This document shows positions 23,384 through 45,712 of a DNA stretch of 64,000 bases, piece after piece (position 1 is the stretch's first letter; every line of letters starts with the position of its first letter). Under the pieces are notes generated by a model. The model searched no databases. It worked only from the letters and a program-made list of their open reading frames with translations, and had not been told where the DNA came from. The stretch lies in NCBI GenBank assembly GCA_002437105.1, contig DJOB01000006.1, positions 299,273-363,272 of the forward strand, in the 5' to 3' direction. Origin of the DNA: Bacillales bacterium UBA6449 (GTDB taxonomy: Bacteria; Bacillota_I; Bacilli_A; RFN20; CAG-288). The position numbers and the translations under genes are program-made.

Positions 23384-23509
23384 GCTTTTTCCTCGCCTGG
23401 CTAATAGCCTAGCACGCCTGAGATGGTAAGAATTAAAAGCATTTTTAATATTTGCTGGATGTCATATCGCTAGGTATTTTTGTCTATATAGGGTCATTTC
23501 AGCATAAGA

Positions 23510-23540
23510 GAAAATAAAAGGACCTACTTTCGTAGGTCCC
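23510..23540 (-). terminator. intrinsic terminator, minus strand
   Basis: A perfect 9-bp stem GGGACCTAC/GTAGGTCCC (23519-23527 / 23532-23540) with loop TTTC. On the minus strand it is followed by TTTTATTTT. Confidence 0.8.
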
Positions 23541-23983
23541 CCTATTACTATCATCGGGATTATATTTTCGATGCGATAGCCTGACTAGCTGGGAGAAGTT
23601 TAAGTGGCTAGTACATCTGAGAAGGTGCAAGAGATATACCGACGAGATCCCCATCGCAAATGTAGAAGCAAAAAATAGAGAGCTTTCAGTCATGCTAGGC
23701 TAATTCTTTTTCCCCTTCCCAGAGGCTTTTGCCGTCCCATATCTTGGCTTTAAGAATTCTTTCCTGAGTGCGTCCCCATTAGGATCTTCCATTTCAATTT
23801 GATCGAAATCGATCTTCTATCTTAAAGCCCTAAAGGCTATATTCCTCTTTCTTTCTTATATACCTAAGCAGTTCCATCATTTGACTAAGAATCATTTCTT
23901 TCGATTACGCTAAGCAGCCGATATTTTGGCTATAAGGTGACATAGGAAGATAAAAAAGTCGGATATTTAGCACAGTGTGAATG
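23541..23983 (-). ncRNA. candidate ncRNA or unexplained ORF-free transcription unit; class unknown and boundaries approximate
   Basis: About 440 nt lie between two minus-strand intrinsic terminators. No credible ORF is present. The promoter is not confidently located, though an AT-rich TATATA lies near 23855. Confidence 0.25.
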
Positions 23984-24009
23984 AAAAAAGACCCGCATCT
24001 CTGCAGGTC
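23984..24009 (-). terminator. intrinsic terminator downstream of tRNA-Ser(GCT)
   Basis: The stem GACCCGCA/TGCAGGTC pairs at 7 of 8 positions, with loop TCTC. The plus-strand A-run 23984-23989 gives a U-run on the minus strand. Confidence 0.7.
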
Positions 24010-24101
24010 TCATGTATCAGCTATTCTTCCTTCTGTCAGGAAGTTTTGCTGTGAATGTGAATTCTCACCTTAATGCGGTGAGTGTTCGCATAGGAATCCG
24101 A

Positions 24102-25154: not shown

Positions 25155-25186
25155 CTTTCGGTCGTCGCTCACAGATGATCCCATCG

Positions 25187-25213
25187 CCGGATGATGTATC
25201 ATCCGGTTTTTTT
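25187..25213 (+). terminator. intrinsic terminator after hup
   Basis: A perfect 9-bp stem CCGGATGAT/ATCATCCGG with a 2-nt loop, followed by TTTTTTT. Confidence 0.85.
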
Positions 25214-25261
25214 ATGCCTGCGACCCGGGGTATAGTCTTACTCAGAAGAAAGGTCATTCAG

Positions 25262-28081
25262 ATGGTAATAGTCCTAAAAGATGTCGAGAAGACCTATCGA
25301 GCTAAGGGGAGTGAATATACTGCTCTCAAAGGTATTTCCTTTACCTTTCCCTCCACGGGATTGGTCTGTATCCTCGGTCCTTCCGGCTGTGGTAAGACTA
25401 CCCTCTTGAATCTTATGGGTGCTCTCGATCAGCCTACTAAAGGCGAGATACTTGTCGATGGTAAGAACCTAGCTTCATTTACGAGCAAGGAATGCGATGC
25501 CTACCGCAATCAGCGGGTGGGGTTTATCTTTCAGGACTATAACCTGATCTCTGGAATGTCCTGTGCGGATAACATCCGCACGGCTCTCGAGATCTCTAAT
25601 ACGCCCCGGAGCGAGAGGGAGCACACCATCGAAGAGGTGATGGATGCGGTGGGAGTAAGGAATCTTTGTGATCGTCTTCCTAATCAGATATCCGGTGGAC
25701 AGAGGCAGAGAGTCTCGATCGCCCGCGCTATCGCTACGAATCCGGATCTGCTCCTGGCTGATGAACCTACTGGAGCTCTGGATTTAAAGCGGGGCAAAGA
25801 GATACTTCAGATATTGAAGCGCGAGAGCCAGAAGCGGTTGGTCGTCATTGTCACCCACAACGAATCGTTGGCGAATGAGTATGCCGACTCGATAATAAAT
25901 ATCGAAGATGGACGCATTAAATCCATTTCAGAGAAAGCTGAGTTAAATCATACTGCTAAGGGCGATTCTAAGCCCGTTAATGCCAAGCAAAAGATCGGCT
26001 TGGGGCTCTTTAGATCCTTCAGGATGGGCATTCAGCGCATCAGGGAAGGCATCGGTCGATTCCTCGCCCTCTCCCTGTCGATATCGTTTGGCATATTCTT
26101 CCTGATGTTTACCCTGAGCCTCTCCAATGGATTCAATCGCTATGTGGAGCGAGTCTCGAGACAGACTGGCTCGATGATGTCCTATTCGGTTCCTTCTTAT
26201 ATAGCTCACTCTAAGAGCGACGAGTGGCAAGAGTACAATCAGAGCGAGGACTATCCTAGCGGTGATCTGATATATCCCTATTACCAGGCTGATAATCTAG
26301 TCAGCTATCAATACAATCATTTCGATCCTCACTACATATCTTTTCTGGAGCAATTGAAGAAAGACGAGGTTCTCTCTGACTATGTGATTAATTATGCCGG
26401 AAATGCTTCCATGATAATGCTGACTAGTCAGCCGGGAAAGATCTCTGATAACACTGGAGCTGGTACTGTTGAGGTGGATACGACCAGGACTGCTTCGATG
26501 GCACCGGGTACTGGTGGAATGAACTTTGCTCCCACTTCTATCGTTCACACTCTCTTCGGAAACTATGAGCAGGATTACGATGTCCTTTCTGGAAGATTAC
26601 CTAAGGATGATTCTGAGGGGGTTCTGATTGTTGATAAGCGTAATTCGATCTCCTTCGATACTCTTAAATCTTTAGGCTTTTACAACAATCAAGATACTAA
26701 GCAGGACATCTTGGATGCGAGCGGGAAGGTTCAAGGGTTCGATTTCGAGGTGGCACTAGGTAAGGAATATCGTATCTATTCGCTGGATGATTACTATCAG
26801 CTAGTCAATACGGTAGCGGTGACTGATGGGTTAGGTGAAAGTCACTCGCTAGACTTGTTCTCCTCGGCGTATCTATCTAGTGAAGGCCAAGATACTCAGG
26901 AGAAATTAGATAACTATTATGCGGACCATACTCCTTTCAAATCCTTGAAGATCGTCGGGATCATTCGTCCGAATAAATCTATAGCTAATCCATCCATGCG
27001 TACTGGTTTAGCCTATCTGCCATCTCTCATGGAAGATATCGTGGAGGTGAATAGATCATCGAAGGTTTCTACCTCATTTGAGAAGTCGTTGATAGTAAGG
27101 GAAAACAGCTCGTTAGGAGATATGGTTTCTGATCTCGAAAAAGCTATATCCGAAGCTGAGCAGGGAGATGATGACTCCATATCCCTGACTCCGATAAAGG
27201 ATGTTTTGGATAAGTATCTCTACGGAGCGGTTACAGTAGCGGATTCCTACTATCAAAATAAGGACGTCTTATATGCATATACCACGCTGGCGGGATTCTA
27301 TAGGGCGGCATCTATATATGGAGCCCAGATGATATCTGACGATATGAGTTTTACCTCGCTCTCCTCTGTTGATGATCTGAAACCTTATATTCAGAAGCTG
27401 ACAGCTCTCTATACCGAGGGAAAAGTTGAACAAGCCTATTCGCTTCTCACATCTCTATGCGGGATACTGAATGCGTATTCGACTATTTCCAGTATCACCT
27501 TGCTTCCGTCTTCTATGGAGAACTCCACTAAGCTAGCGGAGATTCTTGAAGACTATAACAATATCGAAGTGGGATCGGTCTACCACGCTCAGAGTGAAGA
27601 GGGAAAGATCTATACCATAGATTATGTCTCCTGGGCTATTTCGGATGTGGGTACGGCTATCGATCTCGGCTCGACTCTTCTGATTGTTCTCTCGGTCATT
27701 TCGCTGTTGGCAGCGGTAGTAATCGGTGCTGCGGTGACGAATATGTCGGTGATGGAAAGAACGCGCGAGATAGGAATCCTGCGAGCTATCGGGGCAAAGA
27801 AGAGCGATGTGTGCGTGATATTTGAATCTGAATCGATGTTAGCTGGTATATGTGGAGCAGTAATGGGCAGCCTCTTGGCATATGTAACAACCTTCCCGGT
27901 CAATGCGATAATCAATTACTATTATTCCGTGTATAGCATGGATAGTATCGCTAGTATGGCTTGGTGGGCTCCGCTTATCGCCCTTCCGATAGCGGTTCTC
28001 ATCTCCTGTGTTTCAGCTCTGATCCCTTCGCTTAAAGCTGCTAATAAGGATCCTGTGATCTGCTTGAAGAGCAATGAGTAG
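25262..28081 (+). CDS. fused ABC ATPase / FtsX-type permease (MacB-like) with a very large extracytoplasmic domain
   Basis: The N-terminal ATPase has [26 protein letters not shown] and [13 protein letters not shown]1 follows, then a hydrophilic region of about 500 aa. The C-terminal FtsX module reads [14 protein letters not shown] and has 3 TM segments. I placed the start at ATG 25262 because the track ORF start (25175) lies inside the hup terminator. Confidence 0.85.
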
Positions 28082-28211
28082 AGAGTAGAAGCGAAAATAG
28101 GTTGAATATTGATTCTTCCCCTATTTTGTTTCTTCATTCCTAGATAGTTGTCTTGGGTATAAATTACATTTGTATGCCTATGGTTACTCTTGCATATTTT
28201 TAGCACTGCAC

Positions 28212-28239
28212 ATAAAAACCACCCCATACATCGGGGTGG
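28212..28239 (-). terminator. intrinsic terminator ending the large ORF-free unit
   Basis: The stem CCACCCC/GGGGTGG (28219-28225 / 28233-28239) has a 7-nt loop. The plus-strand A-run 28214-28218 gives a U-run on the minus strand. Confidence 0.8.
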
Positions 28240-28835
28240 CTGCTCAATCGAATCGGATATCTGCGAACTTGCGGTTTTCCTTAAACGTCTCAACAGTTCT
28301 GATGCGCTTATCTCTCAATCTTCCCTTCCAAATAATTGAGTCGCTGCTTTTGGAACTAATCTTGAATTAACCTATCAAGATAGTTCCATCAATTCTGAGG
28401 ATTAACCTACCTCAGTGGTCTCAGCTTGATCCGTTACTCTCTTATGCTAAGGTGAATGGATCTTCAACAGTCAGATCAGCGCTTTCGTCAACCTATCGGT
28501 TAGATTCATAATCGTACGCCTTATATCTAACGGATAGACAACTACTTTTGACTGATAGTCATCGCCTAGCACTAGAAGAAGTTTCTAAGCTTTTCTAGTT
28601 CGCCTTGCAAACATATCGGATGACTTATTTTGTGATTTTGTAGAAGGTACAGTCAATTCTTCCCAGGAGACTTCAGCGTAGTGCCGATGCCTTAAACCCT
28701 GTACTCGACTCTCCGGTCCCGAGGTTACAATCCTGATACCGCTTGTAGTCAGAAGCGGACCAGACCCCTTCGCCTCAACTGAGCTTATCTTCCCATCAAG
28801 GAGGGTTCGTCGCCTTGTCGTCCCCCCTCCTTCGT
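28212..28835 (-). ncRNA. candidate large structured ncRNA (about 620 nt), class unknown
   Basis: It has its own promoter (28841-28869) and terminator (28212-28239). Stops occur in all frames. Many perfect local helices are present. Two adjacent hairpins carry an identical 9-nt loop on different stems. It sits next to a tRNA cluster. Confidence 0.45.
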
Positions 28836-28840
28836 CTATG

Positions 28841-28869
28841 AATATACAGGATTCGTGTAGGCTTGTAAA
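28841..28869 (-). promoter_or_regulatory. sigma-70-type promoter of the candidate large ncRNA
   Basis: On the minus strand: TTTACA (28869-28864), a 17-nt spacer, then TATATT (28846-28841). Confidence 0.55.
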
Positions 28870-29272
28870 GTATCCGCTTTCACATTTTTTGATAATTGTT
28901 AAAAAGTTGGCTATTTATCGGCATTTTTTGACCATAAAATATTTATAAAGCAGGTGCTTTCGATGGGGCAAATGTAAGCGGTTATATAGATTTGTACCCG
29001 ATATATCAGGATGGAATTTAGCGCAGCTAAATGAGGAGAAGGTATCTTAGATTTCTGTCTTTTATTGCTCGATATAAGGAAGATGTCTTCTTTTATAGTC
29101 CTCTGTATTTTATTTTTTGGGTCGAGAATTCAGGCGATTTTTAACATTGGATGAAGCAGGTCTTTCTTAAAGTTCTGAGTATGACGATCGTTGTGCTTCA
29201 GCCTTATTGAGTCTCCCCGTAATTTTTGATTGCACACCCAGGGTATGGACAGGGAAATATATTTTTATGAAC

Positions 29273-29299
29273 AAAAAAGAAGTGATCTTTCATCACTTC
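29273..29299 (-). terminator. intrinsic terminator (second of a tandem pair) after the tRNA-Ala/tRNA-Met unit
   Basis: A perfect 8-bp stem GAAGTGAT/ATCACTTC with a 5-nt loop. The plus-strand A-run 29273-29278 gives a U-run on the minus strand. Confidence 0.75.
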
Positions 29300-29321
29300 A
29301 CTAAGCCACTTTTAGTGGAAT

Positions 29322-29355
29322 AAAAAAGAAGCGACATCGTGTCACTTCTGTTTTT
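29322..29355. terminator. bidirectional-looking terminator just downstream of tRNA-Met
   Basis: The stem AGAAGCGAC/GTCACTTCT pairs at 8 of 9 positions. It is flanked by an A-run (29322-29327) and a T-run (29351-29355). Confidence 0.7.
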
Positions 29356-29360
29356 CAATA

Positions 29361-29436
29361 TGGTGGCGGGGGTGGGAGTCGAACCCACGACGTAGCGGGT
29401 ATGAGCCGCCTGCTCTGCCAACTGAGCTACTCCGCC
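29361..29436 (-). tRNA. tRNA with CAT anticodon (elongator Met most likely; Ile2-lysidine not excluded)
   Basis: The reverse complement folds as GGCGGAG-TA-GCTC AGTTGGCA GAGC-A-GGCGG CTCATAC CCGCT-ACGTC-GTGGG TTCGACT CCCAC-CCCCGCC-A-CCA. The 1-72 pair is G-C, so it is not an initiator. There is an A6/C67 mismatch. Confidence 0.85.
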
Positions 29437-29445
29437 TAAAAAAAA

Positions 29446-29521
29446 TGGTGGAGCTGACGGGGATCGGACCCGCGACCTCCTCCATGCCATGGAGGCGCTC
29501 TCCCAGCTGAGCTACAGCCCC
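29446..29521 (-). tRNA. tRNA-Ala (anticodon GGC)
   Basis: The reverse complement folds as GGGGCTG-TA-GCTC AGCTGGGA GAGC-G-CCTCC ATGGCAT GGAGG-AGGTC-GCGGG TCCGATC CCCGT-CAGCTCC-A-CCA. The G3:U70 Ala identity pair is present. Confidence 0.88.
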
Positions 29522-29554
29522 ATTCTTTACCGCCCTTTTGCGGACAGCTCGATA

Positions 29555-29583
29555 ATACTAATCCTTGTTTATTGTTTCGTCAA
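29555..29583 (-). promoter_or_regulatory. sigma-70-type promoter of the tRNA-Ala/tRNA-Met unit
   Basis: On the minus strand: TTGACG (29583-29578), a 17-nt spacer, then TAGTAT (29560-29555). It lies about 33 nt upstream of the tRNA-Ala 5' end. Confidence 0.6.
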
Positions 29584-29732
29584 TAGTCAATTTAGAAATA
29601 ACCCATAGTTAGGGATGGTCTTACACCGAGTCTACTTCTGAGAATCAGTTTAGATCTTTTTTCTGTCTTTCACTTTTAGGGCTCAGCTCTACAGTGTGTT
29701 AGCATTGATGGGGTGGTGGCTTTTTTGGTAAC

Positions 29733-29756
29733 AAAAAACCTGATCATCAGATCAGG
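29733..29756 (-). terminator. intrinsic terminator after the upstream CAT tRNA
   Basis: A perfect 7-bp stem CCTGATC/GATCAGG with loop ATCA. The plus-strand A-run 29733-29738 gives a U-run on the minus strand. Confidence 0.8.
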
Positions 29757-29769
29757 CTTCTCATATTCA

Positions 29770-29845
29770 TGGTGGACCGAGCCGGACTTGAACCAGCAAC
29801 AACCCGGTTATGGGCCGGGGACTCTAACCATTGAGCTATCGGTCC
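29770..29845 (-). tRNA. tRNA with CAT anticodon (Ile2-lysidine type suspected; Met not excluded)
   Basis: The reverse complement folds as GGACCGA-TA-GCTC AATGGTTA GAGT-C-CCCGG CCCATAA CCGGG-TTGTT-GCTGG TTCAAGT CCGGC-TCGGTCC-A-CCA. The GGACC acceptor and GCTGGTTCAAGTCC T-arm resemble tRNA-Ile2 sequences I recall. The 1-72 pair is formed, so it is not an initiator. Confidence 0.8.
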
Positions 29846-29913
29846 AAGATAGCGAGGGATATTTTAAAACAAACAACTGCTTTTTAGAATAAATAATGTT
29901 GGCTTCCAGGCGC

Positions 29914-44166: not shown

Positions 44167-45712
44167 TTTCCTTCTCCTCGTGATAGCTCTGCTCCGTATT
44201 GACATTCCAGAGTTCATCCTTGCTGGTATCGCCTTTGATGATGTGTCTAGCGGCGAGGATGGCCGTCATCATCGAATGGTCCATATTGTTGTAGCGGTGT
44301 TGTCCATTCCTTCCGACGCAGAAGAGATTGTCAATAGTATTAAGATAATCTTTAACCTTATCAAATTGTGAATAGGTTCCAAAGTAGGCGGGATAGGCTT
44401 TCCGGATTTTGACCTGGGTTGAATCGAGGATGTCATCAGCTGAGGCGATCACACCTATCTCCACGAGTTCGCCGATAGCTTTGGCGATGAACTTCTCTTT
44501 CTCCATCGTCCACATCGCATCGCCCTCGTTGCAGAAGTACTCGAGTCCGATCCAGACTTTCGTATTGTCCTTCACCATGTAGGGAGACCAGTTGTTGAAT
44601 ATCTGGATCCGTCCCAGTCTCACCTCGCGGTCCTGAACATAGATCCAGGTGTCGGGGACACGATCGTACAGGGTCTTTAGCTTGGTCTCATTGTGGATCT
44701 TCAGCTTATCCACTAGCAGACCTACGGTGATGAAGTCGCGATAGGGAAGCTCGGTGGCGATGCGGTAGACTTCCTCGCCGGTCTTCTGTTGACCGATGGA
44801 TTCGATGAGATCCTTGATGGGCATGGAAGATACATAGTAATCTCCCTGGTATTCTTTACCGCCTGCCCGCAGGGAAGCGATATTTCCTCTGTCGTCTAGA
44901 GATATGCCGTCCACCTGGGCGTTGAAGATGATCTCACCACCCATTTCGATGATCTTCTTCGCCATCTCCTCGTACAGCTGTCCCGGTCCCTTCTTGGGGT
45001 ACATGAATTCCTCGATCAGCGAGGTTTCCTTCTTCTTGCTATTCTTGACGAAGGGTTTCTGAAGGATATTTAAAATGGCTTTACTCAGGGATAGACCTTT
45101 GACGCGCTGGCGTCCCCAATCAGCGGAGATGTCCTTAGGATCGCGGCCCCAGACCTTAGCCGTGTAATCCTCGAAGAACATCTGATAGAGCGGTTTGCCG
45201 AAGCGGTTGATGTAGAAATCCGCGAGATTGTTTTCCTTTCTCTTGTGTATAGCGCTGCCGAGGTAGCCGAATCCCGCCTGCATCGTCTTTTTGAAACCCA
45301 TATTGTGGAAGGTCTGCCACTTGAGAGATATGGGGTAGTCGAAGAAGCGCCGGTTGAAATAGATACGGCTCACTCTTCTTCGCCTGAGCATGATCTCGTC
45401 GGTCTTCTCCGGATCGGGTCCCCCGGGAGCTAACTGTACCTTTCGATCGATGGCGCGGTCGTCGCTCGCGGGTGCTCCCTGCAGGGGCATCACTTCCAGC
45501 CATATCCTGTTCACCTCATCGAGTTTGGTGAAGAAGCGGTGTCCACCGATATCCATGCGGTTCCCGTGGTAAGAGACGGTCTGAGAGATGCCACCGATAA
45601 CGTGATCGGAGGCTTCAAGGATGATCGGATGAAGATCTTTTCCCTCTTTGAGAAGGGTGTAAGCGGCAGTTAGACCAGCGGGACCGGCTCCGATGATTAT
45701 TATATTTTTCAT
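44141..45712 (-). CDS. FAD/NAD(P)-dependent oxidoreductase (amine-oxidase / UDP-galactopyranose-mutase superfamily)
   Basis: The N-terminal dinucleotide fold is [13 protein letters not shown]. Other motifs are GGHRFF and the C-terminal [14 protein letters not shown]. Confidence 0.75.

What the first reader, a model, noticed from the sequence alone, without database searches (positions are those of the whole stretch)
28212..28869. Self-contained ~620-nt ORF-free transcription unit beside a tRNA cluster: candidate large structured ncRNA of unknown class
There are 1.28 kb between the MacB-like gene stop (28081) and tRNA-Met (29361) with no credible ORF. The rest of the window is about 90% coding. 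Inside this gap, on the minus strand, sits a near-consensus promoter: TTTACA, a 17-nt spacer, then TATATT, at 28869-28841. About 620 nt later comes a clean intrinsic terminator, the CCACCCC/GGGGTGG stem at 28219-28239 followed by a U-run. The interval has stops in all frames and many perfect local helices. Examples are AAGGAGGG/CCCTCCTT (28798-28805 with 28825-28832) and ACTAGAA/TTCTAGT (28571-28577 with 28593-28599). Its size, independent expression signals and tRNA adjacency recall the genomic context reported for very large ornate bacterial RNAs such as ROOL and GOLLD. I cannot verify from memory that it matches any known consensus. I looked for RNase P (GAGGAAAGUCC), tmRNA (tRNA-like 3' end with CCA) and SRP domain IV signatures and found none.
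Basis: partly seen in the sequence, partly recalled or inferred. Interest (0 to 1): 0.8.

Follow-up and report, generated by a model that had tools for sequence, protein, structure and literature searches.

The report
New large structured bacterial RNA gene
A stretch of about 620 bases between a transporter gene and a tRNA cluster in an uncultured Bacillota genome looks like a separately transcribed, intricately folded RNA gene; it is conserved in at least five related species and matches no described RNA family, so it is a credible candidate for a new class of large bacterial RNA.

Summary
The region 28082-29360 has no credible ORF. On the minus strand a sigma-70-type promoter (28869-28841) and an intrinsic terminator (28241-28214) bracket about 620 nt.

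I recovered the same element from four other species-level lineages in full (L092, L093, L101, L094) and from two more in part (L091, L102). All are uncultured Bacillota. Their neighbouring ABC protein is only 44-52% identical to the window's. The element is 43-64% identical at the nucleotide level, and conservation starts at the promoter and ends at the terminator.

On a structure-blind MAFFT alignment, a 104-pair model is 82.5% paired, against 34-49% when the partners are slid. Of the 104 pairs, 53 change on both sides, against 13-23 slid and 24.8±3.3 shuffled. No reading frame is conserved and Pfam finds nothing.

Rfam 15 (4227 families, including OLE, ROOL, GOLLD, raiA, RNase P, tmRNA, SRP and 6S) gives no hit for any of the five full-length sequences, even at lax E-value limits (10 or 1).

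The tRNA adjacency is not conserved. Adjacency to the HU-ABC gene pair is.

Verdict: a real, vertically inherited, multi-domain noncoding RNA of an undescribed family. Its function is unknown; it most likely acts through its fold. Limits: seven sequences, no expression data.

The parts
28869..28882 (-). Conserved box TGAAAGCGGATACT abutting the -35 hexamer; it fits the degenerate CcpA cre consensus TGNAANCGNWNNCW (consensus recalled from memory)
   Evidence: Present at the same position in all five promoters (alignment). The pattern alone is not rare: 2 found against 1.8 expected in the window. The cre reading is therefore a lead, not a finding.
28841..28869 (-). Sigma-70-type promoter: -35 TTTACA (28864-28869), 17-nt spacer, -10 TATATT (28841-28846); predicted start near 28834
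   Evidence: 10 of 12 matches. Both hexamers are conserved in L092, L093 and L101; L094 has TTGACA.
28214..28834 (-). Predicted RNA of about 620 nt (RNA position n = window 28839 - n)
   Evidence: Full-length nhmmer matches in L092, L093, L101 and L094. 197 positions are invariant among four lineages. Conservation stops at the promoter and the terminator.
28798..28832 (-). P1: 8-bp 5'-terminal hairpin with a conserved 19-nt loop (GGGGACGACAAGGCGACGAAC)
   Evidence: 97.5% of cells paired; 3 pairs change on both sides (GGAGG/CCTCC, GGGAG/CTCCC, GGAAG/CTTCC).
28778..28784 (-). P2, 5' strand of the long-range closing helix (GCUCAGU)
   Evidence: Pairs with 28242-28248; 94% of cells paired. L094 can form GCCU/AGGC instead (read from the sequence).
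28242..28248 (-). P2, 3' strand (AUUGAGC), just upstream of the terminator
28720..28777 (-). P3: three-tier hairpin (P3o 5 bp, P3m 5 bp, P3i 6 bp) with a conserved 8-nt loop (CNRACWAY)
   Evidence: Predicted independently by RNAalifold on the 5' domain. P3o is 95.7% paired and P3m+P3i 87.3% paired, with 8 pairs changed on both sides.
28673..28687 (-). P5 hairpin UCGGC/GCUGA
   Evidence: 95.8% paired; only G-U to G-C changes.
28650..28656 (-). P6, 5' strand (UUGACUG), followed by the invariant single-stranded ACCUUC (28643-28648)
   Evidence: Pairs with 28548-28554; 94.3% paired; 5 of 7 pairs change on both sides. L094 has UUGGUUG/CAACCAA.
28548..28554 (-). P6, 3' strand (CAGUCAA)
28572..28598 (-).
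   Evidence: The loop and the inner 3 bp are conserved (AAG/CUU, UAG/CUA). The outer stem varies and is poorly aligned: 59-76% paired.
28487..28542 (-). Variable extended hairpin (tentative)
   Evidence: This segment folds as a single extended hairpin in the window, L101 and L093; the fold is weaker in L092 (centroid keeps only the outer stem) and branched in L094; stem sequences are unrelated. Individual z-scores are weak, -0.3 to -1.9.
28474..28482 (-). P8, 5' strand of the helix that closes the 3' domain (GCGC..AUC)
   Evidence: Pairs with 28304-28312. Only 60% paired on MAFFT columns, but each of the window, L101, L092 and L093 forms the helix with a different sequence: GCGC/GCGC, GCCGA/UCGGU, GCCGA/UCGGC, CCAGUCGGG/CCCGGCGGG.
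28304..28312 (-). P8, 3' strand
28428..28462 (-). P9 hairpin (GAUCC/GGAUC); the loop holds the conserved GAGAGUAAC
   Evidence: 92% paired; 4 of 5 pairs change on both sides (GGCUC/GAGCC, GACUC/GAGUC; L094 GCCAG/CUGGC).
28422..28425 (-). P10, 5' strand (GCUG)
   Evidence: Pairs with 28343-28346; 100% paired; L093 has GUUG/CAAC.
28343..28346 (-). P10, 3' strand (CAGC), inside the conserved AAGCAGCGAC
28395..28415 (-). Ha: 6-bp hairpin with the 9-nt loop UAGGUUAAU
   Evidence: 96% paired; L101 has CUAGGG/CCCUAG. The loop is at 28401-28409.
28352..28387 (-). Hb: 13-bp hairpin with the same 9-nt loop UAGGUUAAU
   Evidence: All 13 pairs change on both sides in some sequence (UUGA/UCAA, CGAG/CUCG, GUGG/CCAC, CAGG/CCUG, CGGG/CCCG), although only 72.2% of cells pair on the MAFFT columns. 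The loop is nearly invariant in 6 sequences. The loop is at 28366-28374.
28314..28340 (-). P13 hairpin (CUCAAU/AUUGAG) with the inner hairpin YYY-GGRA-GGG
   Evidence: CCGAU/AUCGG in the relatives and CUUUGA/UCAAAG in L094. MAFFT misaligns it by one column, giving 52.8% paired.
28214..28240 (-). Intrinsic terminator: GC-rich hairpin plus U-run
   Evidence: Every homologue has a hairpin plus U-run at the same place, with a different stem sequence.

Best explanation
Window 28834-28214 (minus strand) is a stand-alone gene for a noncoding RNA of about 620 nt. It belongs to a family not described so far. The family is inherited vertically in a small clade of uncultured Bacilli-like Bacillota. The RNA is made from its own sigma-70-type promoter and ended by its own intrinsic terminator. 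It folds into a compact multi-domain structure. A 5' hairpin (P1) sits outside a long-range helix (P2) that closes the rest. Inside are a three-tier hairpin domain (P3), a P6-closed domain carrying a CUNAGAAA loop, a variable extension hairpin, and a P8-closed 3' domain with twin hairpins that display the same UAGGNNAAU loop. About 115 positions outside the modelled helices are invariant among four lineages. I therefore infer that it acts through its three-dimensional fold. The most likely role is the RNA core or scaffold of a ribonucleoprotein, with the repeated loops as protein or tertiary docking sites. It probably does not act by encoding a peptide or by antisense pairing with a neighbouring gene. 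A conserved cre-like box at the -35 hexamer suggests that expression follows carbon status. Shown: the gene anatomy, conservation, covariation, the absence of a conserved reading frame, and the absence of any Rfam match. Inferred: transcription, the scaffold role, and cre/CcpA control.
For: The promoter and terminator are found by scan and conserved in position in the homologues. Full-length homologues occur in L092, L093, L101 and L094, with 3' parts in L091 and L102. The adjacent ABC protein is 44-52% identical, while the RNA is 43.5-64.4% identical at the nucleotide level. On the structure-blind MAFFT alignment, 82.5% of 538 cells pair, against 33.8-49.1% with slid partners; 53 of 104 pairs change on both sides, against 13-23 slid and 24.8±3.3 shuffled (0 of 500 shuffles reach the observed value). 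RNAalifold finds P1, P3, P5, Ha, Hb, P13 and the terminator on its own. In the refitting test the homologues are 92.1% paired, against 77.9±1.5 for decoys. G-U cells outnumber A-C cells 43 to 22, which favours the minus strand. Translated similarity is patchy in all six frames and no ORF is shared. Pfam finds nothing above its cut-off. Among six same-species contigs there are 6 variable sites in the 478-nt spacer upstream, one at RNA position 4 (near the predicted start) and none at positions 5-625. There are no Rfam 15 hits. The element is single-copy in the window and absent from 1.2 Mb of other loci.
Against: There are no expression data, so the transcript and its ends are predicted only. 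There are only five full and two partial sequences, all from metagenome assemblies. That is too few for an R-scape-type significance test. The model was drawn partly from the window sequence, which inflates the paired percentage relative to the slid controls. P7-outer, P8, P13 and the extension hairpin are poorly supported on MAFFT columns (53-76% paired), and the stretches at RNA 120-150, 190-240 and 536-590 are unmodelled. Folding z-scores are equal on both strands. Nothing identifies a protein partner or a substrate. The cre-like pattern is no rarer than chance in the window.
Confidence: 0.78

Rival explanations
1. It is a very divergent member of a described large RNA family (OLE, ROOL, GOLLD, raiA, RNase P, tmRNA, SRP or 6S) that the covariance models cannot recognise.
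For: The size (about 620 nt) and the host phylum resemble OLE. The window copy lies next to tRNAs, as ROOL and GOLLD often do. Covariance models lose sensitivity for remote, lineage-specific variants.
Against: There are no hits to any of 4227 Rfam 15 families for five divergent representatives, even at lax E-value limits (10 for the window and L093, 1 for L101, L092 and L094) with permissive filters. ARAGORN finds no tmRNA. None of the ten invariant blocks of 5 nt or more is an RNase P, tmRNA or SRP signature known to me (own knowledge). The unit is monocistronic and not in an operon with a small membrane-protein gene as OLE is. It is not in a phage context. tRNA adjacency is not conserved.
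Confidence: 0.06
2. It is a protein-coding or formerly coding region: a small-protein gene or a decayed pseudogene.
For: There is an SD-like AAGGAGG at the 5' end and an 83-codon stop-free frame in the window. Stop-free frames reach 139 codons in the GC-richer L092.
Against: No start codon follows the SD-like sequence, which is the 5' strand of the covarying helix P1 and reads AAGGGAG or AAGGAAG in relatives. The long frames lie in different frames in different lineages, and translated similarity is spread over all six frames. The longest start-to-stop ORF on the sense strand is 33 aa. There is no Pfam hit above cut-off. Compensatory base-pair changes are not expected from coding constraint.
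Confidence: 0.03
3. It is a regulatory appendage of a neighbouring gene rather than an independent gene: an antisense or 3'-end regulator of the HU-ABC transporter operon, or a processed tail of the tRNA operon.
For: It lies next to the same ABC gene in all six other lineages, convergent with it and beginning 100-200 nt past its stop (window, L092, L093, L101, L091, L102). In L094 it lies within 1.2 kb. In the window and L092 it is downstream of, and co-oriented with, the tRNA Met-Ala-Met cluster.
Against: It has its own conserved promoter and terminator, and the terminator stops transcription about 130 nt before the ABC stop codon. Two terminators separate it from tRNA-Met. In L094 a 380-aa gene separates it from the ABC gene, and it lies on the same strand as that gene rather than the opposite one as in the other lineages. 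L093 and L094 have no tRNAs nearby. Size and structural complexity far exceed what antisense control needs. The synteny can be explained by common descent.
Confidence: 0.08
4. It is a protein-titrating (sponge) RNA, with the repeated hairpin loops as decoy binding sites for a global RNA-binding regulator. The elaborate fold would be secondary.
For: Two hairpins carry the identical 9-nt loop UAGGUUAAU. A third conserved loop type, CUNAGAAA, occupies the Ha position in L094. The promoter is strong and possibly nutrient-regulated.
Against: There are only two or three repeated sites, whereas known sponges such as CsrB/RsmZ have many (own knowledge). The loop motifs are not enriched elsewhere in the window, so there is no sign of mRNA targets. 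Long-range helices and 115 invariant unpaired positions point to a defined tertiary structure.
Confidence: 0.15

Closest known systems
OLE RNA (Rfam RF01071)
   Same: About 600 nt; found in Bacillota; multi-domain fold with many conserved unpaired nucleotides; biochemical function unresolved; acts in a ribonucleoprotein (PMC9723947, PMC12054373).
   Different: No covariance-model similarity. It is a monocistronic unit with its own promoter and terminator, next to an ABC transporter and tRNAs, rather than inside an operon beside oapA (operon context from own knowledge). It is known only from a handful of uncultured lineages.
ROOL (RF03087) and GOLLD (RF01998)
   Same: Large, ornate, stand-alone RNAs of unknown function. 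The window copy lies beside tRNA genes, a context reported for both families (PMC5737381; otherwise own knowledge).
   Different: No model similarity. No phage or prophage context: viral contigs, phage records and plasmids give no match. tRNA adjacency holds in only 2 of 5 full-length lineages. It appears vertically inherited and single-copy.
raiA motif RNA
   Same: A stand-alone, probably abundant structured RNA of Bacillota with unknown function (PMC10861870, PMC12968392).
   Different: raiA is about 200 nt and occurs in thousands of species. There is no model similarity here, and this RNA is three times larger and rare.
Universal structured RNAs (RNase P RNA, tmRNA, SRP RNA, 6S RNA)
   Same: Independently transcribed, structured, and closed by long-range helices.
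   Different: No Rfam hit. ARAGORN finds no tmRNA. No signature sequences, and the size does not fit.

Membership tests
Structured noncoding RNA gene (generic) | Secondary structure conserved through compensatory base changes | tested here: met
   82.5% of cells paired against 34-49% slid; 53 of 104 pairs change on both sides against 13-23 slid and 24.8±3.3 shuffled. RNAalifold agrees. One search gives 92.1% against 77.9±1.5 for decoys.
Structured noncoding RNA gene (generic) | No conserved reading frame | tested here: met
Structured noncoding RNA gene (generic) | Own promoter and terminator, conserved in homologues | tested here: met
Structured noncoding RNA gene (generic) | A discrete transcript exists | not testable with these tools
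   No RNA-seq or metatranscriptome mapping is available.
OLE RNA | Match to the Rfam covariance model RF01071 | tested here: not met
   Not listed at gathering score, at E<=10 for the window and L093, or at E<=1 for L101, L092 and L094.
OLE RNA | Located in an operon next to the oapA membrane-protein gene (from own knowledge) | tested here: not met
   The neighbours are HU-ABC/FtsX on one side. On the other side they are tRNAs and Udk, a Zn-ribbon gene, or hypothetical genes. The unit has its own promoter and terminator. I did not search specifically for oapA elsewhere in the genome.
ROOL | Match to the Rfam covariance model RF03087 | tested here: not met
GOLLD | Match to the Rfam covariance model RF01998 | tested here: not met
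ROOL / GOLLD | Frequent phage or prophage location and tRNA neighbourhood | tested here: not met
   No match in viral contigs, phage records or plasmids. tRNAs are adjacent in the window and L092 only. L108 has the tRNA cluster without the RNA.
RNase P RNA / tmRNA / SRP RNA / 6S RNA / raiA | Match to the family's Rfam model; for tmRNA, a tRNA-like domain and a tag ORF | tested here: not met
   ARAGORN finds none. The only tmRNA line is the tRNA-Met T-arm at 29361-29400.
CcpA-controlled (cre) promoter | cre operator matching TGNAANCGNWNNCW at the promoter (consensus from own knowledge) | tested here: inconclusive
   All five promoters carry a match abutting the -35 hexamer. However, the degenerate pattern is as common as chance in the window, and the stricter palindromic consensus is missed at two positions. 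Presence of CcpA in the organism was not tested.

The most novel reading that the evidence does not exclude
The RNA is a new RNA-only machine. It could be a ribozyme, or a self-assembling homo-oligomer of the kind recently shown for ROOL, GOLLD and OLE. The twin UAGGNNAAU loops and the CUNAGAAA loop would then serve as inter- or intramolecular docking modules. The L094 copy carries the CUNAGAAA loop at the Ha position, which could fit such modular use.
Probability: 0.2. Interest if true: 0.9.

Novelty: categorically new. Interest (0 to 1): 0.66.

Why it matters
Only about a dozen classes of bacterial noncoding RNA larger than about 400 nt are known (my own estimate). Each has turned out to be a ribozyme, the core of a ribonucleoprotein machine, or, recently, an RNA-only assembly. 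A further class of about 620 nt with at least 16 helices, long-range closing helices and more than 100 conserved unpaired nucleotides would be a new object for RNA structural biology. It would also mark an unknown cellular function in a clade of Bacillota that has no cultured member. The family is small and rare, which limits its biological reach for now. It does show that scanning sequence for ORF-free gaps bracketed by promoter and terminator signals can recover such genes from metagenome-assembled genomes that comparative pipelines built on cultured genomes have not reported, as far as I could find.

Tried and rejected
1. The genome-contig scan with the ABC protein returned only 29-48% ABC relatives from other Firmicutes. 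None carries the RNA, and the organism's own genome was not among the 80 loci kept.

2. The metagenome-contig scan with AAGGN{3,4}GGGGACGACAN{6,8}CGAACC gave four chance hits. L101, recovered later, showed that the P1 loop is not invariant, so the pattern was too strict.

3. Two viral contigs patterns and distant blastn against phages and plasmids found nothing.

4. Contigs of the more distant ABC homologues P0008 and P0011 (37-38% identity) have a different, gene-dense context and no RNA.

5. Udk-based retrieval did not add sequences. L105/L106 have a mobile island after tRNA-Met, L107 ends too early, and L108 has the tRNAs but no RNA.

6. mafft-qinsi and mafft-xinsi are not usable in the sandbox. 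RNAalifold on MAFFT alignments of the middle and distal segments (RNA 190-356 and 536-590) predicts nothing.

7. I looked by eye for a pseudoknot between the P3 loop (CUGACUAC) and the stretch after P6, and for pairing of ACCUUC with GAAGG. Neither is conserved across the lineages.

8. A kissing interaction of the twin loops through UUAA is contradicted by L092 (UCAA in both loops) and by L093 and L094.

9. I read the cre-like box as CcpA control. It is kept only as a lead because the pattern is not rarer than chance.

10. The second long ORF-free gap, at 23384-24100, is not conserved in relatives apart from tRNA-Ser.

11. Literature searches on large bacterial RNAs and on the conserved sequence strings found no description of this element.
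Full report
**Observation.** The MacB-like ABC/FtsX ORF ends at 28081. tRNA-Met(cat) lies at 29361-29436 on the minus strand, followed upstream by tRNA-Ala and a second tRNA-Met. Between 28082 and 29360 the longest start-to-stop ORFs are 66, 49, 38 and 37 aa; a 123-aa minus-strand ORF at 27922-28293 lies mostly antisense inside the ABC gene. With the tRNAs included, 28082-29913 is the longest stretch of the window not covered by an ORF of 80 aa or more. A greedy ORF cover gives 86.8% coverage overall. The promoter scan reports TTTACA-17-TATATT at 28869-28841 on the minus strand, with 10 of 12 matches. The terminator scan reports a 10-pair hairpin at 28241-28217 followed by a U-run. Two further terminators (29349-29327 and 29299-29279) close the tRNA operon upstream, so the unit is separated from it.

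**Is it conserved?** The organism is an uncultured "Firmicutes/Bacillota bacterium" MAG (protein names). Its uridine kinase is 61-64% identical to proteins named Bacilli or Erysipelotrichaceae bacterium. Six contigs of the same species carry the region at 99.6-100% identity. The adjacent ABC protein has only six clusters of relatives above 40% identity, at 44-52%. I fetched their contigs.
- nhmmer with the window sequence finds a full-length match beside the ABC gene in L092 and L093.
- A profile then finds full-length copies in L101 and L094, and the 3' ends in L091 and L102, whose contigs stop there.
- RNA nucleotide identity to the window is 61% (L101), 54.5% (L092), 52% (L093) and 43.5% (L094). 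This order does not conflict with the ABC identities (49, 49, 47 and 44%), as expected for vertical descent.
- In the alignment with flanks, similarity begins at a box just upstream of the -35 hexamer and ends at the terminator U-run.
- 197 of about 625 positions are invariant among four lineages.
- Within the species, six of the seven variable sites in the gap fall in the 478-nt spacer upstream of the promoter. One is at RNA position 4 (near the predicted start) and none at positions 5-625.

**Is it an RNA structure?** RNAalifold on MAFFT alignments recovers the 5' hairpin P1, a three-tier hairpin P3, P5, two hairpins Ha and Hb, P13, the terminator and long-range helices. I combined these with inspection of the sequences and wrote a 104-pair model in window coordinates. 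I then counted it on the structure-blind 7-sequence MAFFT alignment A2.
- 82.5% of 538 cells form standard pairs, against 33.8-49.1% when the 3' partners are slid by 1-3 columns.
- 53 pairs change on both sides, against 13-23 slid and 24.8±3.3 in shuffles. No shuffle out of 500 reaches the observed value on any of the five measures.
- The best-supported helices are P1 (97.5% paired), P3, P6 (5 of 7 pairs changed on both sides), P9 (4 of 5), Ha, and, by covariation though only 72% paired, Hb (13 of 13).
- P7-outer, P8 and P13 look weak on MAFFT columns. When read in each sequence, they form with different sequences. P8 is GCGC/GCGC in the window, GCCGA/UCGGU in L101, GCCGA/UCGGC in L092 and CCAGUCGGG/CCCGGCGGG in L093. 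P13 is CUCAAU/AUUGAG, CCGAU/AUCGG or CUUUGA/UCAAAG.
- In a refitting test that leaves out the window row, the homologues are 92.1% paired, against 77.9±1.5 (maximum 82.7) for displaced decoy helices. In that test the count of double changes does not discriminate, and I do not use it.
- G-U cells outnumber A-C cells 43 to 22. Together with the promoter and terminator, this places the RNA on the minus strand. Single-sequence folding z-scores are -3.6 on both strands and do not decide it.
- Caveats: only seven sequences; the model was drawn partly from the window sequence; about a third of the RNA (RNA 120-150, 190-240 and 536-590) is unmodelled; and the extension hairpin at RNA 297-352 is tentative.

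**Is it coding or a dead gene?** The longest sense-strand ORF with a start codon is 33 aa. Stop-free segments reach 83 codons in the window and 139 in L092, but they lie in different frames in different lineages. Translated similarity is scattered over all six frames in short patches that mirror the nucleotide blocks. The eight longest segments have no Pfam match above cut-off. The SD-like AAGGAGG at the 5' end is the 5' strand of P1, reads AAGGGAG or AAGGAAG in relatives, and is followed by no start codon.

**Is it a known RNA?** Rfam 15 (4227 families) reports only tRNAs in the window at gathering score. With permissive filters it reports nothing on the element at E<=10 in the window or in L093, and nothing at E<=1 in L101, L092 and L094. 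That excludes detectable membership of OLE, ROOL, GOLLD, raiA, RNase P, tmRNA, SRP, 6S, HEARO and the rest. ARAGORN finds no tmRNA. The element is absent from viral contigs (two patterns), phage records and plasmids. Full-text searches for large bacterial RNAs and for the conserved strings found no description of it. These searches cannot exclude an unpublished candidate or one not in Rfam.

**Context.** In the window, L092, L093, L101, L091 and L102 the RNA converges on the 3' end of the ABC gene, which follows an HU gene and a divergent Fur gene. In L094 a 380-aa gene separates it from the ABC gene, and it lies on the same strand as that gene, not the opposite one as in the other lineages. 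The other flank differs: tRNA Met-Ala-Met and Udk in the window and L092, a Zn-ribbon gene and a 1936-aa helicase in L093, and a 216-aa hypothetical gene in L094. A relative with 74% Udk identity has the tRNA cluster but no RNA there (L108). So tRNA adjacency is incidental. The ABC adjacency is conserved, but shared ancestry can explain it. A covariance model of the 3' domain finds no further copy in the window or in 1.2 Mb of other loci.

**How it probably works.** Shown: a monocistronic unit with conserved expression signals, and a multi-domain fold closed by long-range helices (P2, P6, P8, P10). Ten invariant blocks of 5 nt or more were found; those outside or partly outside the modelled helices include CGACGAA in the P1 loop, ACCUUC after P6, AGAAACU in the P7 loop and GGUAGGU/AAUCC in the twin loops. 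The conserved stretches GAGAGUAAC and AAGCAGCGAC were read from the alignments. Inferred: such architecture is typical of RNAs that act through tertiary structure, so I take it to be the RNA core of a ribonucleoprotein or an RNA-only device. The twin UAGGNNAAU loops would be docking sites for a protein or a tertiary receptor. A sponge role is possible, but only two or three repeated sites support it, and the motifs are not enriched elsewhere in the window. All five promoters carry TGWAAGCGNNNNCT abutting the -35 hexamer, which fits the degenerate cre consensus (recalled from memory). This suggests catabolite control, but the pattern is as frequent as chance in the window, so it is only a lead.

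**Verdict.** It is a previously undescribed family of large structured RNA, so far restricted to a few uncultured Bacillota. Its function is unknown. Confidence that it is a genuine structured ncRNA gene is about 0.9. Confidence that it belongs to no described family is about 0.8. Confidence in the scaffold mechanism is low.

Noticed in passing
window 28883-29360: A roughly 480-nt AT-rich spacer lies between the tRNA-Met gene and the RNA promoter. It begins with two tandem intrinsic terminators (29349-29327 and 29299-29279). L092 has only about 120 nt at this place. The spacer holds six of the seven sites that vary among same-species contigs. It contains only short ORFs of 29-38 aa.
   Followed up: partly
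L105:6738-12666 and L106 (closest relative by Udk, 82% identity): Directly after tRNA-Met(cat) there is an island encoding DUF2326, MC6, DUF4417 and DDE transposase proteins, where the window has the remaining tRNAs and the RNA. It looks like a mobile or defence island integrated at the tRNA. The RNA is not within the 6 kb fetched.
   Followed up: partly
L093:7405-13733 and L093:402-2053: In L093 the RNA is flanked by a Zn-ribbon protein and a 1936-aa DUF4011/AAA_11/AAA_12/MTES_1575 helicase. A DUF4417 + Peptidase_M78 + HTH_3 trio sits beyond Fur. These may be defence or mobile genes inserted around the conserved Fur-HU-ABC-RNA block.
   Followed up: no
L094:9124-9143 (RNA positions 442-461): In the most distant homologue, the hairpin at the Ha position carries the loop CUAAGAAA. 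The other lineages display this loop type on P7. L094 has UAGGNNAAU only on Hb. This looks like a swap of loop modules between hairpins.
   Followed up: partly
window 25175-25264: The start of the ABC gene is ambiguous. Gene callers gave 939, 955 or 968 aa for the same species. The 968-aa ORF begins 29 codons upstream of the conserved [10 protein letters not shown] start of the ATPase domain.
   Followed up: no
window 23384-24100: This is the next-longest genuine ORF-free stretch of the window (the larger 44218-45155 gap looks like an overlapping-ORF artefact), about 700 nt beside tRNA-Ser(gct). Only the tRNA and its immediate surroundings are conserved in L091, L093 and L101. The rest is not, and it has no Rfam hit.
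   Followed up: yes
L092:4050-4123 (+): A sub-threshold Rfam hit to Plastid-ycf2 (36.6 bits, E=2.5e-4) lies exactly antisense to tRNA-Met. It is an artefact of tRNA-like sequence, not a feature.
   Followed up: yes
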